Origin: a virus
Lineage: Duplodnaviria > Heunggongvirae > Uroviricota > Caudoviricetes
Virus record (IMG/VR): IMGVR_UViG_2671180643_000014
Reading direction: 5' to 3' (one strand)
Length of the DNA stretch: 16,682 bases
The position numbers were made by a program, and so were the translations under genes. Every line of letters begins with the position of its first letter. Positions within the stretch are counted from its first letter, which is position 1. Below the pieces are notes generated by a model. It had not been told where the DNA came from. It worked only from the letters and a program-made list of their open reading frames with translations, and did no database searches. This document shows, one piece after another, positions 7,709-9,126 of this stretch.

Positions 7709-7727
7709 GTCATTTTTTGTAAATTAT

Positions 7728-7752
7728 TTGTTCGTGGTTGTTCCACGTTGTT
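7728..7752. promoter_or_regulatory. Copy B of repeated motif (ttgttcgtggttgttccacgttgtt), upstream of the head/packaging operon
   Basis: Exact reverse complement of 1298-1322. Overlaps a weak candidate promoter (-35 TTGTTC 7748-7753, -10 TATTTT 7770-7775). Confidence 0.5.
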
Positions 7753-7829
7753 CACTGACAGGATCGGCATATTTTACCCGAACTGAATCATGAGTATTCT
7801 CGCCCGTGGTGCCAGGACGCTGGGGCCAC

Positions 7830-7877
7830 TTTCCCGCCTGTTAATGTGCTCGCCAATATTCATTACCAGGCGGGAAA
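7830..7877. promoter_or_regulatory. 11-bp perfect inverted repeat in the head-operon leader
   Basis: tttcccgcctg at 7830-7840 and caggcgggaaa at 7867-7877, separated by 26 bp. Confidence 0.45.
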
Positions 7878-7930
7878 ACGATCGGTGCGATTACTGATTT
7901 CCTTATGAAAAACGGTTGAGTGTTTGCCGC

Positions 7931-7968
7931 GTCCTGGAGTTCCTTACTTAACCCCAGGACTTTTTTTT
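7931..7968 (+). terminator. Intrinsic terminator abutting the capsid start codon
   Basis: GTCCTGG (7931-7937) pairs with CCAGGAC (7954-7960), followed by 8 T (7961-7968). The capsid ATG at 7969 follows directly with no Shine-Dalgarno. Confidence 0.6.
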
Positions 7969-9126
7969 ATGCCGAGAATAATCGAATTACGCCAGCAGAA
8001 AACCGCCATTAAAAATCAGATGCGCGACATGCTGGAGAGCGCGGAAAAAGAAAACCGCAGTCTTAACGATGCTGAGGGCGCAAAATTTGACGAATTACGC
8101 GCTAAAGCTGAATCCCTCGATAAAGACATTTCCCGCCTTGAAGCCATTGCAGACGAAGAGCGCAGCAAGCCAGGTAAAAGCAGCCAGACCACTGACCCCG
8201 CAGAACTACGCAACTACATTCTGACAGGTGAAACCCGCGCATTAAGTACAGGCGTTCCCGCTGATGGTGGTTATACCGTTATCCCCGAACTGAACACCGA
8301 AATCATGCGAATGCTGGCGGATGAGTCCACCATGCGCCGCATCTGTACCGTGAAGAAAATCAGCAGCAACGAGTTTAAGCAGCTTGTTTCCGCTGGCGGT
8401 GCGACCGTTAACCACGGTGAAGAGAGTAAGGCACGCGAACAGACCAGCACCCCGCAGATTAACGAGGTGAGCATTAAGCTGTATCCGGTCTATGCGTACC
8501 CGCGCACCACACAGGAAATCGTGGATTTTTCCGATGTGGACATCCTTTCATGGCTGACGGGTGAGATTGGCGACACCTTCACGGAAACCGAAGAAAGCGA
8601 TCTGGTTGTGGGCGACGGTGACAAAAAAGCAAAAGGTTTTTTATCCGTACCCCGTGCAGAGAAGAACGACAAAGAGCGTGATTTTGGTACGTTGCAGGTA
8701 ATTAAACCTTCCGAATCTCTGGCGTGGACATCTGCGGACCCGCTGATCGACCTGAAATTTGCATTACGTAAAAAATACCGCAAAAACGCGGTCTGGGTGG
8801 TTAACTCCACGACGGCCGCAAAACTTCAGAAGGTGAAGAACGCGAACGGTGATTACATCTGGCGCGACCGTTTACAGGCGGGTGATCCTGATACGTTGCT
8901 GGGCCTTCCGGTCGAATATCTGGAGTTTATGCCAGATAACGTTATTGCCCTGGGTGACTTCAAACGCGGTTACTACATTGTTGATCACGAAACAGGTGTT
9001 CGCACCAGACCGGACAACCTCACAGAGCCGGGCTTCATCAAAATTTTCACGCAGAAATATTTAGGCGGTGGCGTGGTGGATTCGAACGCGATCAAGATTC
9101 TGGAACTGCCACAGGACGACGATTAA
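7969..9126 (+). CDS. Major capsid protein, HK97 fold
   Basis: N-terminal coiled-coil delta-like segment (MPRIIELRQQKTAIKNQMRDMLESAEKENRSL...FDELRAKAESLDKDISRLEA) followed by a roughly 280-aa body typical of HK97-family capsid proteins. Track ORF starts at TTG 7924; ATG 7969 preferred. Confidence 0.85.
   Translation: MPRIIELRQQKTAIKNQMRDMLESAEKENRSLNDAEGAKFDELRAKAESLDKDISRLEAIADEERSKPGKSSQTTDPAELRNYILTGETRALSTGVPADGGYTVIPELNTEIMRMLADESTMRRICTVKKISSNEFKQLVSAGGATVNHGEESKAREQTSTPQINEVSIKLYPVYAYPRTTQEIVDFSDVDILSWLTGEIGDTFTETEESDLVVGDGDKKAKGFLSVPRAEKNDKERDFGTLQVIKPSESLAWTSADPLIDLKFALRKKYRKNAVWVVNSTTAAKLQKVKNANGDYIWRDRLQAGDPDTLLGLPVEYLEFMPDNVIALGDFKRGYYIVDHETGVRTRPDNLTEPGFIKIFTQKYLGGGVVDSNAIKILELPQDDD

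What the first reader, a model, noticed from the sequence alone, without database searches (positions are those of the whole stretch)
7710..7971. Head operon preceded by a leader with an intrinsic terminator touching the capsid start codon
A weak promoter overlapping motif B is followed by an 11-bp perfect inverted repeat (7830-7877) and then a canonical terminator (7931-7968) whose U-run ends one nucleotide before the capsid ATG, with no Shine-Dalgarno. An uninduced transcript would stop as a leader RNA of under 200 nt. This resembles the lambda pR'-qut-tR' arrangement, so capsid and terminase expression may depend on antitermination, possibly by a helper-phage Q-like factor.
Basis: partly seen in the sequence, partly recalled or inferred. 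Interest (0 to 1): 0.65.

Follow-up and report, generated by a model that had tools for sequence, protein, structure and literature searches.

The report
Terminator-like leader of satellite capsid operon
This stretch holds the promoter and a folded RNA leader of about 160 bases in front of the capsid gene of a phage satellite (EcCIEDL933 type); its last hairpin looks like a transcription stop signal and also hides the ribosome-binding site, so it probably throttles capsid production, but nothing suggests it waits for a helper-phage Q protein.

Summary
The window is a capsid-forming PICI about 99% identical to EcCIEDL933. Region 7710-7971 is the control region of its packaging operon. The 11-bp inverted repeat (7830-7840/7867-7877) is the strongest local one in the window. 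The hairpin 7931-7960 plus U8 (7961-7968) abuts the capsid ATG (7969) and scores like the element's canonical terminators.

Two corrections apply. An SD-like AGGA (7956-7959) lies inside the 3' arm. The promoter best supported by comparison is TTTACC-16-TATTCT (7773-7800), which starts the RNA at hairpin 1 (7806-7829).

Across 80+ related islands, hairpin 1, hairpin 2 and a pre-ATG hairpin are conserved with compensatory changes. Only the EDL933/ZH063 lineage has the U-run, so termination is a lineage-specific addition.

Hairpin 1 carries CCAGGACGC, which is complementary to the terminator's 5' arm. This gives classical attenuator topology, and other lineages mirror it with different sequence. 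My best reading is a cis-acting leader attenuator that blocks both transcription and translation by default; its trigger is unknown.

Helper-Q antitermination is not supported. There is no Q gene, no pause element downstream of the conserved promoter, and no similarity to any phage. Published work reports capsids made without a helper.

The parts
7688..7713 (+). Intrinsic terminator of the upstream gene (AGCCGGAGCAATCCGGCT followed by a T-rich tail). It is a near-twin of the terminator at 7334-7351.
   Evidence: dG -12.0, d score +10.6
7716..7728 (+). TTTGTAAATTATT box, found in cf-PICIs of several genera and always 88-90 bp upstream of hairpin 1.
   Evidence: (H26-H30 match only this part)
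7728..7753 (+). Three TTGTTC units at an exact 10-bp period (7728, 7738, 7748). It is a candidate binding array for the excisionase-type regulator AlpA, at about -79 to -54 of the conserved promoter.
   Evidence: 12 array matches against 1.8 expected; other arrays at 1277-1322, 1537-1552, and 15073-15098 next to attR. Binding by AlpA is inferred, not shown.
7748..7775 (+). It is weak and conserved only in the EDL933/ZH063 lineage.
7773..7800 (+). Promoter supported by comparison: -35 TTTACC (7773-7778), 16-bp spacer, -10 TATTCT (7795-7800). Predicted start is about 7806-7808.
   Evidence: TATNNT lies exactly 5 nt upstream of hairpin 1 in 32 of 32 distinct sequences. TTTAC(A/C)-16-TATNNT is found in three lineages. 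The start site is not mapped.
7806..7829 (+). Hairpin 1 (GUGGU-G-CCAG-GACG-CUGG-G-GCCAC) at the 5' end of the leader. Proposed anti-antiterminator.
   Evidence: -13 kcal/mol; 9 pairs, 5 with compensatory changes, 98.6% of cells paired against 19-62% when slid
7812..7826 (+). Segment S1: CCAGGACGC (7812-7820) plus GGC (7824-7826). It is complementary to the 5' arm of the terminal hairpin.
   Evidence: duplex -22.7 kcal/mol, rank 7 of 16,667 windows
7830..7877 (+). Its stem is kept in all lineages with different sequences.
7880..7899 (+). Hairpin 3, small and specific to this lineage.
   Evidence: -5.7 kcal/mol
7926..7937 (+). Segment S2: GCC-GCGUCCUGG. It forms the 5' arm of the terminal hairpin and is also the partner of S1 in the alternative long-range helix.
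7931..7968 (+). Terminal hairpin (7931-7960) plus U8 (7961-7968). It looks like an intrinsic terminator and also sequesters the ribosome-binding site.
   Evidence: Conserved in the ZH063 lineage. Absent as a terminator in other lineages.
7956..7959 (+). AGGA, a weak Shine-Dalgarno-like sequence 9 nt upstream of the ATG, inside the 3' arm of the hairpin.
   Evidence: read directly from the sequence
7969..9126 (+). Major capsid protein gene (HK97 fold), first gene of the packaging operon.
   Evidence: PF05065, 2.8e-61. The start is fixed by the conserved N-terminus and by frame-shifting indels upstream.
9136..9157 (+). Hairpin immediately after the capsid ORF, with a short T-run. It is conserved with covarying stems across lineages and is probably a partial terminator or mRNA stabiliser.

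Best explanation
Region 7710-7971 is the control region of the packaging (head) operon of an EcCIEDL933-type capsid-forming PICI.

A weak sigma-70 promoter (TTTACC-16-TATTCT, start about 7806-7808) sits downstream of phased TTGTTC repeats and a family-wide TTTGTAAATTATT box. It produces a leader of about 160 nt made of hairpin 1, hairpin 2, hairpin 3 and a terminal hairpin plus U8 that touches the capsid AUG.

The terminal hairpin is a lineage-specific version of a pre-AUG hairpin found throughout the family. Here it has acquired a GC-rich stem and a U-run. It therefore acts both as an intrinsic terminator and as a clamp over the only SD-like sequence. The default state is OFF for transcription and for translation.

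Hairpin 1 contains CCAGGACGC...GGC, which can instead pair with the terminator's 5' arm (GCC-GCGUCCUGG). This long-range helix encloses hairpin 2, prevents the terminator from forming, and frees AGGA, the U-tract and the AUG. The leader thus has the three-helix topology of a classical attenuator: anti-antiterminator (hairpin 1), antiterminator (long-range helix) and terminator.

Shown here: the elements, their conservation and covariation, and the energetics.

Inferred: that termination actually occurs, that the alternative helix forms in vivo, and that AlpA activates the promoter.

Unknown: what shifts the fold.
For: Identity of the element.

Terminator quality: dG -12.7 kcal/mol, U8, discriminant +21.3, against +24.6 and +10.6 for neighbouring canonical terminators.

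Conservation: stem and T7-8 are kept while the loop diverges in the 75%-identical ZH063 lineage and in 27 of 27 type I leaders.

Promoter: TATNNT lies 5 nt upstream of hairpin 1 in 32 of 32 distinct sequences. The box-to-hairpin-1 spacing is constant at 88-90 bp.

Hairpin 1: 5 of 9 pairs covary. Hairpin 2 stems differ in sequence in every lineage but always form.

Alternative helix:
- 9 perfect pairs plus 3 more, -22.7 kcal/mol against -14.2 for the terminator arms, rank 7 of 16,667 windows.
- It is the MFE of the nascent RNA ending at 7938-7953; the terminator is the MFE from 7960 onward.
- On the 32-sequence alignment, 78.7% of cells pair in register, against 25-43% when slid, and 5 pairs changed on both sides.
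- Truncated leaders of Rosenbergiella, Morganella-type and E. coli type II islands also fold into the long-range helix.
- Two lineages with unrelated sequence (L072/74/78 and L084/85) show the same topology.

No Rfam family matches.
Against: There are no transcript data: the start site, the 3' ends and the termination efficiency are all predictions.

The covariation in the long-range helix amounts to essentially one evolutionary event (7 type I sequences against 25 others).

The shuffle control is only marginal for this lineage (19/400) and fails for ZH063 (92/400).

At transcript end 7945 the alternative fold is only 1.8 kcal/mol better than the closed fold, and the estimated refolding barrier is about 20 kcal/mol. 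It would not form unaided in the time available, and no effector was found.

Inverted-repeat covariation is also what a palindromic DNA operator would show.

Most lineages express the same operon without any U-run, so the terminator may be dispensable fine-tuning.
Confidence: 0.45

Rival explanations
1. Static leader with no switch. The hairpin plus U-run is a leaky terminator, or not a terminator at all in vivo. Its real roles would be mRNA stabilisation (5' hairpin 1) and translation initiation. The U8 tract directly upstream of the AUG would serve as a ribosomal protein S1 / 30S landing site that compensates for the weak SD, as reported for the E. coli rnd (RNase D) 5' UTR, where a hairpin plus U8 that looks like a terminator is required for translation (Zhang and Deutscher 1992, recalled from memory, not checked here). 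Operon output would be set only by promoter activity.
For: None of the capsid genes in the family has a good SD, so unconventional initiation is likely in all of them. Sister lineages work without a U-run. The alternative fold has a high barrier and a small energy advantage. Two natural type I variants have weakened stems (-8.7 and -6.1 kcal/mol) and persist. A second hairpin after the capsid gene points to generally leaky, dosage-setting terminators in this operon.
Against: This does not explain why hairpin 1 carries a 9+3-nt complement of the terminator's 5' arm, nor why the complementarity is re-created with other sequences in other lineages. AGGA is buried by the hairpin, which is odd for an enhancer. 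The discriminant score equals that of real terminators in the same element.
Confidence: 0.25
2. Factor-dependent processive antitermination. RNA polymerase starting at this promoter is modified by a protein: a helper-phage Q-like factor, or an unrecognised island protein such as the PerC homologue (7133-7327) or the small ORF at 7453-7677. The modified polymerase ignores the leader terminator and the post-capsid hairpin.
For: There is a chain of four terminator-like hairpins on the same strand (7334, 7688, 7931, 9136). The terminator lies directly before the first ORF, as at P. aeruginosa alpB and PA0807, which are bypassed by a promoter-loaded antiterminator (PMC7969949). Island induction needs a helper and AlpA (10.1101/2022.09.08.507074).
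Against: No Q, N, RfaH-type or P. aeruginosa AlpA-type protein is found in the island. The island's AlpA is a 62-aa excisionase-type protein, unrelated to the roughly 150-aa, 21Q-like P. aeruginosa AlpA. There is no -10-like element downstream of the conserved promoter and no ops element on the + strand of the leader. The leader has no similarity to phage late-promoter regions. PerC and the small ORF are absent from some islands with the same leader family. Capsids are reported without a helper phage.
Confidence: 0.12
3. DNA-level reading. Hairpin 1 (an imperfect 24-bp palindrome at +1 to +24) and the related copies of CCAGGAC/GTCCTGG are operators for a dimeric DNA-binding repressor or activator. 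The 'structures' would then be by-products of palindromic binding sites.
For: Symmetric changes in both halves (CTCA/TGAG to CCAG/CTGG) are also what an operator with altered specificity would show. The position over the transcription start is typical for repressors.
Against: Hairpin 2 keeps an 11-17-bp stem with completely different sequences and loop lengths in each lineage, which fits RNA and not a protein site. G-U pairs occur in the stems. The whole leader is unusually stable as RNA (z = -4.4). No repressor is known in Gram-negative PICIs (PMC6092414).
Confidence: 0.08
4. The prematurely terminated leader, about 155-162 nt, is itself the product: a satellite-encoded small RNA made in uninduced cells. 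It would be analogous to StxS, the short RNA made from the Stx-phage PR' promoter by early termination at tR' (PMC7547250). This reading is compatible with the attenuator model.
For: The leader is a highly structured RNA that ends in a terminator hairpin plus U-tail, which is the usual sRNA 3' end. The sequence of hairpin 1 is very strongly conserved.
Against: Only one lineage has the terminator that would release such an RNA. No target or Hfq/ProQ evidence exists. No expression data were found.
Confidence: 0.08

Closest known systems
Lambda pR'-qut-tR' late control (6S RNA) with Q antitermination
   Same: A late or structural operon preceded by a promoter-proximal leader of 160-190 nt that ends in an intrinsic terminator. 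Without read-through only a short RNA is made.
   Different: No Q gene or recognisable Q-binding element. No sigma-dependent pause element downstream of the conserved promoter. The terminator abuts and overlaps the ribosome-binding site of the first gene. Sister elements lack the terminator. No sequence similarity to phage late regions.
Classical leader attenuators with three mutually exclusive helices, such as the B. subtilis pyr operon (PyrR stabilises an anti-antiterminator) and the trp and pyrBI leaders (established knowledge)
   Same: Topology of anti-antiterminator (hairpin 1), antiterminator (7812-7826 with 7926-7937) and terminator (7931-7968). The nascent-RNA MFE flips between these states.
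   Different: No conserved leader peptide (ATG 7790 is not conserved). No identified protein or ligand sensor. The antiterminator is a long-range helix spanning about 110 nt. The terminator also occludes the RBS.
Pseudomonas aeruginosa AlpA antitermination of alpBCDE and PA0807 (PMC7969949, PMC9371919)
   Same: Intrinsic terminators immediately upstream of the first ORF of a prophage-like operon, bypassed after induction. The regulator has the same name as the PICI master activator.
   Different: Coincidence of name only. P. aeruginosa AlpA has about 150 residues and 8 helices with a 21Q-like fold. The island's AlpA has 62 aa, is an excisionase-type winged helix, and matches only PDB 8c3t and the PHROG 'excisionase and transcriptional regulator'. 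There is no GGGACG binding element between the -35 and -10.
E. coli rnd (RNase D) 5' UTR: hairpin plus U8 required for translation (Zhang and Deutscher 1992; from memory)
   Same: A terminator look-alike (GC hairpin plus eight U) between the promoter and the start codon of a gene with a poor initiation region.
   Different: Here the U-run touches the AUG and the SD-like AGGA is inside the stem. Upstream complementarity to the 5' arm is not a feature of rnd. Not tested.
Multifunctional excisionase-regulators that bind phased direct repeats: P2 Cox (which activates P4 PLL), P4 Vis, E. coli AlpA (established knowledge; PMC6092414 and PMC10111431 for AlpA)
   Same: TTGTTC units at a 10-bp period occur next to attR, between int and alpA, upstream of alpA and upstream of the capsid promoter. 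[quoted passage not shown]
   Different: Binding of AlpA to these arrays is not shown. In Morganella islands the capsid-promoter repeats are not found near alpA or att.
Satellite P4 immunity by RNA-driven premature termination (CI RNA with seqA/seqC), as summarised in PMC10111431
   Same: A phage satellite that controls an operon through RNA-RNA pairing which causes or prevents early termination in a leader.
   Different: P4 uses a trans-acting processed RNA. Here the pairing partners are in cis, and the island's C4-like RNA (3015-3102) shows no special complementarity to the leader.

Membership tests
Capsid-forming PICI (EcCIEDL933 family) | int, alpA and primase/replication genes plus own capsid, protease, portal, connectors, HNH, TerS and TerL; no tail or lysis genes; size 10-16 kb | tested here: met
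   Pfam and PHROG annotation. The tested capsid-upstream region (window 7678-7990) is 99% identical to EDL933, and the island has the same gene order and the same position between roxA and phoQ. The 21-bp att repeat was found.
Intrinsic (Rho-independent) terminator | GC-rich stem-loop immediately followed by a run of at least 6-7 U | tested here: met
   7-bp stem (5 GC) plus a 3-bp inner stem, dG -12.7, U8. Discriminant +21.3, comparable to terminators 7334 and 7688. The 30-nt hairpin with a 16-nt apical region is atypical, and the simple scanner missed it.
Intrinsic (Rho-independent) terminator | Transcripts actually end in the U-run | not testable with these tools
   No usable Term-seq or RNA-seq data were found.
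Lambda-type Q antitermination unit (pR'-qut-tR') | Q-family antiterminator gene available to the promoter | tested here: not met
   No Q-like family appears among the island ORFs. Helper phages were not examined.
Lambda-type Q antitermination unit (pR'-qut-tR') | -10-like sigma-dependent pause element in the initially transcribed region, next to a Q-binding element | tested here: inconclusive
Downstream of the conserved promoter (start about 7806) there is no TAnnnT in the first 30 nt. No Q-binding element can be recognised without knowing which Q is involved.
Lambda-type Q antitermination unit (pR'-qut-tR') | Promoter-proximal intrinsic terminator | tested here: met
   7931-7968.
P. aeruginosa AlpA-type (21Q-like) antitermination | Protein of about 150 aa with an N-terminal ring segment and a C-terminal HTH; binding element GGGACG between -35 and -10 | tested here: not met
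   The island's AlpA has 62 aa and is excisionase-type. The paper describes an unrelated 8-helix protein. No GGGACG lies in the spacer 7779-7794.
RfaH/ops-dependent operon | ops element GGCGGTAGnnTG on the non-template strand of the leader | tested here: not met
   No + strand match within 2 mismatches in 7700-7971. The total number of matches is at the chance level.
Leader attenuator with alternative RNA structures | A segment upstream that pairs with the terminator's 5' arm, mutually exclusive with the terminator | tested here: met
   7812-7820 and 7824-7826 pair with 7926-7937: 12 bp, -22.7 kcal/mol, and the MFE of nascent RNA ending 7938-7953.
Leader attenuator with alternative RNA structures | The alternative pairing is conserved with compensatory change in relatives | tested here: inconclusive
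   5 pairs changed on both sides, and 78.7% of cells pair against 25-43% when slid. Analogous topology occurs in unrelated leaders. However, this is essentially one event, and shuffle P values run from 0.005 to 0.23 depending on lineage.
Leader attenuator with alternative RNA structures | A sensor: leader peptide, RNA-binding protein, tRNA or ligand | tested here: not met
   The candidate leader ORF (ATG 7790) is not conserved. No C4-RNA complementarity. No Rfam riboswitch or leader family.

The most novel reading that the evidence does not exclude
The cf-PICI capsid leader is a previously undescribed family of cis-acting RNA switches. It consists of a 5'-terminal anti-antiterminator hairpin with an invariant GACG loop, a structural spacer hairpin, and a pre-AUG hairpin. 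A helper-phage or island-encoded RNA-binding factor, or an RNA chaperone, flips it, so that capsid synthesis is licensed post-initiation. In the EDL933 lineage the OFF state additionally releases a stable leader RNA of about 160 nt that could act in trans in EHEC, as StxS does.
Probability: 0.15. Interest if true: 0.75.

Novelty: new variant of a known kind. Interest (0 to 1): 0.52.

Why it matters
The cf-PICI papers I searched do not mention a promoter or terminator for the packaging operon, so how these satellites switch on their own capsid and packaging genes appears not to have been described. The question bears on a recent finding that they release tail-less capsids even without a helper phage. 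This analysis offers a conserved promoter, a candidate activator array and a structured leader. The leader can block both transcription and translation of the capsid gene, and it comes with specific mutations to test. If the switch is real, it would be a new leader-RNA family specific to phage satellites, present in about 7% of complete E. coli genomes (360 of 5,426), including O157:H7. It would also be a possible handle for engineering PICI-based delivery particles. If it is only a leaky terminator, the finding is ordinary operon fine-tuning.

Tried and rejected
1. Homology between the PICI AlpA and the P. aeruginosa antiterminator AlpA. Rejected: the proteins are unrelated (62-aa excisionase type against an 8-helix, 21Q-like protein of about 150 aa).

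2. Leader peptide (ATG 7790, 36 codons) as a trp-like sensor. It has no SD, the start and frame are not conserved in ZH063 or in type II leaders, and the ATG is absent in Morganella-type leaders.

3. In-frame N-terminal extension of the capsid. Rejected because indels just upstream of the ATG shift the frame between lineages.

4. CsrA sites (GGA in the hairpin 1 loop and in the SD). The GGA is not conserved in type II hairpin 1.

5. C4-like antisense RNA of the island as a trans-effector. Complementarity ranks 66 of 3,329 windows.

6. RfaH ops element. Absent.

7. HK022 put-like or any other phage-derived leader. There is no blastn similarity to 50,697 phage records other than satellite-like records. 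No Rfam family matches any lineage.

8. PerC, or the small ORF 7453-7677 (PHROG 1957), as a universal regulator. Both are missing from some islands with the same leader family. The single-sequence structure model of the ORF was unusable (pLDDT 57).

9. Independent test of the 'AlpA array' idea in Morganella islands. No matching arrays were found near alpA or att, so this was uninformative.

10. Search for more diverged type I leaders in metagenomes. Only near-identical copies turned up.

11. Published transcript evidence for EDL933 or Sakai. Nothing usable was found.

12. IHF or P2 Ogr-type sites in the TTTGTAAATTATT box. None was seen by eye.
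Full report
WHAT THE WINDOW IS. The window encodes the following genes on the + strand:
- a tyrosine integrase (1-1230);
- a 62-aa AlpA-type excisionase/regulator (1596-1784);
- an Icd/C4-RNA module;
- RgdR (3996-4295);
- a D5-type primase (4292-6040);
- SSB (6635-7045);
- a PerC homologue (7133-7327);
- a small ORF of PHROG 1957 (7453-7677);
- then HK97-type capsid (7969-9126), prohead protease, portal, head-closure and connector proteins, HNH, TerS and TerL.

The tested region (7678-7990) is 99% identical to E. coli O157:H7 EDL933, where the element lies between roxA and phoQ. 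That element is CP-933C, also called EcCIEDL933, the prototype capsid-forming PICI (10.1101/2022.09.08.507074). The finding therefore concerns the 291-bp gap between the replication/accessory genes and the packaging operon of a well-known phage satellite. The two cf-PICI papers I read never mention a promoter or terminator for this operon.

THE OBSERVATION.

The 11-bp perfect inverted repeat lies at 7830-7840 and 7867-7877. It extends to 17 nt at 94% and is the best local inverted repeat in the whole window.

The terminal hairpin pairs GTCCTGG (7931-7937) with CCAGGAC (7954-7960). A further 3 bp form inside the 16-nt apical region. dG is -12.7 kcal/mol. Eight T follow (7961-7968), then the ATG at 7969.

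A d'Aubenton-Carafa-type discriminant, implemented from memory, gives +21.3. The two textbook terminators at 7334 and 7688 score +24.6 and +10.6. The generic scanner missed the hairpin because of its long loop.

As RNA, 7706-7990 is far more stable than shuffles (z = -4.4, 0 of 200).

Two details need correction. First, AGGA at 7956-7959, 9 nt before the ATG, is a weak Shine-Dalgarno-like sequence buried in the 3' arm.

RELATIVES. I collected the capsid-upstream regions of more than 80 related islands. They came from E. coli genomes, one-genome-per-species contigs, IMG/VR, two complete Morganella islands and metagenomes.

The leader of the window ('type I') occurs at 94.7% identity or more across most of the query in 360 of 5,426 complete E. 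coli genomes. A second sub-lineage (strain ZH063) is 75% identical. In ZH063 the hairpin arms are 13/14 identical and T8 is kept, but the loop is only 7/16 identical. Among 27 type I sequences, all have T7 (21) or T8 (6), and 25 keep the stem. The hairpin plus U-run is therefore under selection in this lineage.

A FAMILY-WIDE ARCHITECTURE. Most other lineages share a recognisably homologous leader: E. coli 'type II', Rosenbergiella, and many unlabelled IMG/VR loci whose capsids are 66-71% identical, which is the range where the protein search found Morganella, Proteus, Salmonella and Citrobacter capsids. It has four features.

(i) A TTTGTAAAT(T)ATT box lies 88-90 bp upstream of hairpin 1 in every lineage. 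This holds although the intervening DNA differs: phased TTGTTC repeats in E. coli, and an intrinsic terminator with covarying stems elsewhere.

(ii) A -10-like TATNNT lies exactly 5 nt upstream of hairpin 1 in 32 of 32 distinct sequences. Where no terminator occupies that space, a TTTAC(A/C) -35 lies 16 bp further up. In the window this promoter is TTTACC 7773-7778 / TATTCT 7795-7800, which predicts a start at about 7806-7808, the first bases of hairpin 1.

(iii) Hairpin 1 is nearly invariant: GUGGC-A-CUCA-GACG-UGAG-CC-GCCAC in most lineages and GUGGU-G-CCAG-GACG-CUGG-G-GCCAC in type I. Five of its nine pairs show compensatory changes, and 98.6% of cells pair, against 19-62% when the partner is slid.

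A hairpin also lies just before the ATG in every structured leader. In most lineages it is GGUUUC-A-CGU...ACG-GAAACC followed by ACUCC-AUG, with no U-run, so it is not a terminator. The type I hairpin re-uses part of the same 5' sequence (CGUC is invariant across all 32 aligned leaders), but it has a new 3' arm plus U7-8. The terminator is thus a lineage-specific elaboration of a conserved pre-AUG hairpin. None of these capsid genes has a good, free SD.

AN ALTERNATIVE PAIRING. Hairpin 1 of the window contains CCAGGACGC (7812-7820). This is the exact reverse complement of GCGUCCUGG (7929-7937), which is the terminator's 5' arm plus two bases. GGC (7824-7826) can extend the helix by pairing with GCC (7926-7928).
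- The duplex is worth -22.7 kcal/mol, against -14.2 for the terminator arms.
- It ranks 7th of 16,667 windows as a partner for hairpin 1.
- Folding the nascent RNA from 7806 gives hairpin 1 closed up to 7936, the long-range helix as MFE for 3' ends 7938-7953, and hairpin 1 plus terminator from 7960 on.

These are the three mutually exclusive helices of a classical attenuator. Opening the terminator would also free AGGA, the U-tract and the AUG.

The pairing recurs elsewhere. In type II leaders AGACGUGAGCC of hairpin 1 pairs with GGUUUCACGUCU, and truncated leaders of eight of the ten other lineage representatives folded adopt this long-range helix as MFE. On the 32-sequence alignment, 78.7% of cells pair in register, against 25-43% when slid, and five pairs changed on both sides between type I and the rest. 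Two lineages with unrelated leader sequences (L072/74/78 and L084/85) again have a 5'-proximal segment (CAUGUAGG or CAUGCAGG) complementary to the 5' arm (CUGCAUG) of their pre-AUG hairpin.

CAVEATS.
- The covariation is essentially one event.
- Shuffling the distal segment matches the observed pairing in 19 of 400 trials for the window and 92 of 400 for ZH063. For the other lineages the figures are 2-3 of 400 for five of them and 28 of 400 for L070.
- At 3' end 7945 the alternative fold beats the closed fold by only 1.8 kcal/mol, and the estimated barrier is about 20 kcal/mol.

Left alone, the RNA should therefore stay in the hairpin 1 plus terminator state (default OFF). Something must help it switch, and I could not identify what.

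WHO MIGHT ACT ON IT. I tested the obvious candidates.
- No Q, N or RfaH-like protein is encoded in the island.
- The tempting link to P. aeruginosa AlpA fails. That protein is a promoter-loaded antiterminator that bypasses terminators placed directly before alpB (PMC7969949). It has about 150 residues and a 21Q-like fold (PMC9371919), whereas the island's AlpA is a 62-aa excisionase-type protein.
- There is no ops element on the + strand of the leader.
- There is no -10-like pause signal after the conserved start.
- There is no conserved leader peptide.
- The island's C4-like RNA shows no special complementarity to the leader.
- There is no similarity to any phage in 50,697 records except satellite-like entries, and no Rfam family matches.
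- PerC and the PHROG 1957 ORF are not present in all islands with this leader.

THE PROMOTER SIDE. 'Motif B' consists of three TTGTTC units at an exact 10-bp period (7728, 7738, 7748). Similar arrays occur in three other places:
- between int and alpA (1277-1322, five units, opposite strand);
- about 45-60 bp upstream of alpA (1537-1552);
- 85-110 bp inside the attR core (15073-15098; the core, CGGTGTAGTTAATGGTGTAGT, is at 15182-15202).

In total there are 12 array matches against 1.8 expected. A distribution covering an att arm, the protein's own promoter and a late promoter is what one expects of an excisionase that doubles as a transcription factor, as P2 Cox and P4 Vis do (established knowledge). 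[quoted passage not shown] I therefore infer that AlpA activates the packaging promoter from about -79 to -54. This is an inference. A check in Morganella islands was uninformative.

LITERATURE BEARING ON THE HELPER-Q IDEA. EcCIEDL933 needs alpA and an inducing helper (HK106 or HK446) for high-frequency transfer. [quoted passage not shown] For EcCIEDL933 they are reported in strain EDL933, whose prophages do not induce it (10.1101/2025.02.11.637232). The second case does not exclude a Q supplied by resident lambdoid prophages, and I could not determine the leader type of the Klebsiella island. This evidence weakens the helper-Q model but does not eliminate it.

VERDICT. The lambda/Q analogy is not supported.

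The best-supported reading, at confidence about 0.45, is a cis-acting leader attenuator. Its OFF hairpin blocks both elongation and ribosome binding, its ON state is a long-range helix with the 5'-terminal hairpin, and it sits behind an activator-dependent promoter.

The main rival, at about 0.25, is a static leader in which the hairpin plus U8 is a leaky terminator and/or a U-rich translation enhancer, with no switching. Factor-dependent processive antitermination (about 0.12), a DNA-operator reading (about 0.08) and a trans-acting leader sRNA (about 0.08, not exclusive of the attenuator) remain possible.

All functional steps await transcript mapping and mutagenesis. As a conserved, unannotated leader-RNA architecture in a topical class of phage satellites, it is moderately interesting. 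As a terminator alone, it is ordinary.

Noticed in passing
window 2898-2947 and 3015-3102 (+): Rfam matches above gathering score to the P1/P7 C4 antisense RNA (72.6 bits) and to its a1/b1 target sites (46.8 bits). Icd-like ORFs flank them (about 2611-2808 and the C-terminal part of 2860-3327). This is an immI-like RNA immunity module inside the satellite's alpA operon. A sub-threshold isrK match overlaps it.
   Followed up: partly
window 1277-1322 (-), 1537-1552 (-), 15073-15098 (+); att core 15182-15202: Further arrays of TTGTTC-like units at a 10-bp period: five units between int and alpA (only two in EDL933 itself), two units just upstream of alpA, and three units 85-110 bp inside attR. 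The 21-bp att repeat CGGTGTAGTTAATGGTGTAGT was located by comparison with EDL933.
   Followed up: partly
window 6048-6278: A dense set of GGTAGAGGG-type iterons in both orientations (at least 10 copies), immediately downstream of the primase gene. This is probably the island's replication origin.
   Followed up: no
window 7334-7351 and 7688-7705 (+): Two almost identical terminators (AGCCGGAG[A/C]AATCCGGCT followed by Ts) bracket the small PHROG 1957 gene, as if it were a cassette. In other genera the corresponding terminator sits between the TTTGTAAAT box and the -10, and its stems covary.
   Followed up: partly
window 9136-9157 (+); same position in L003, L012, L013, L050, L059, L090-L094: A GC-rich hairpin with a short T-run lies directly after the capsid stop codon and before the protease gene. 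It is conserved across lineages with different stem sequences and probably sets the capsid-to-protease ratio.
   Followed up: partly
window 3996-4295 (+): This 99-aa DUF4222 protein carries RGD at residues 20-22. It is RgdR (ECs1581), the CP-933C regulator of LEE and motility described in PMC3378721.
   Followed up: yes
window 7945-7953; L013, L050, L072, L084 pre-ATG hairpin loops: The apical loop of the pre-ATG hairpin carries CTTAAC in most lineages although the stems differ. L084 carries its complement, and ZH063 lacks it. It resembles part of the T7 gene 10 epsilon enhancer (from memory). Unexplained.
   Followed up: no
L013 1697-2239: In one E. coli cf-PICI a ProQ/FinO-family RNA chaperone gene occupies the slot held by PerC in the window, two genes upstream of the structured capsid leader.
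   Followed up: no
L059, L064, L068, L071, L080, L081, L093 and similar loci (leaders resembling L004, Xenorhabdus innexi): These relatives keep the TTTGTAAAT box, the terminator and a TTTTTCATG..TGTTAAAT promoter-like block. Their AT-rich leaders are only about 35 nt long and lack hairpins 1 and 2, so the structured leader is not universal in the family.
   Followed up: partly
window 12019-12309: A 290-bp non-coding gap lies between the HNH and TerS genes. By analogy with HK97-type cos phages this is the likely cos region. It was not examined.
   Followed up: no
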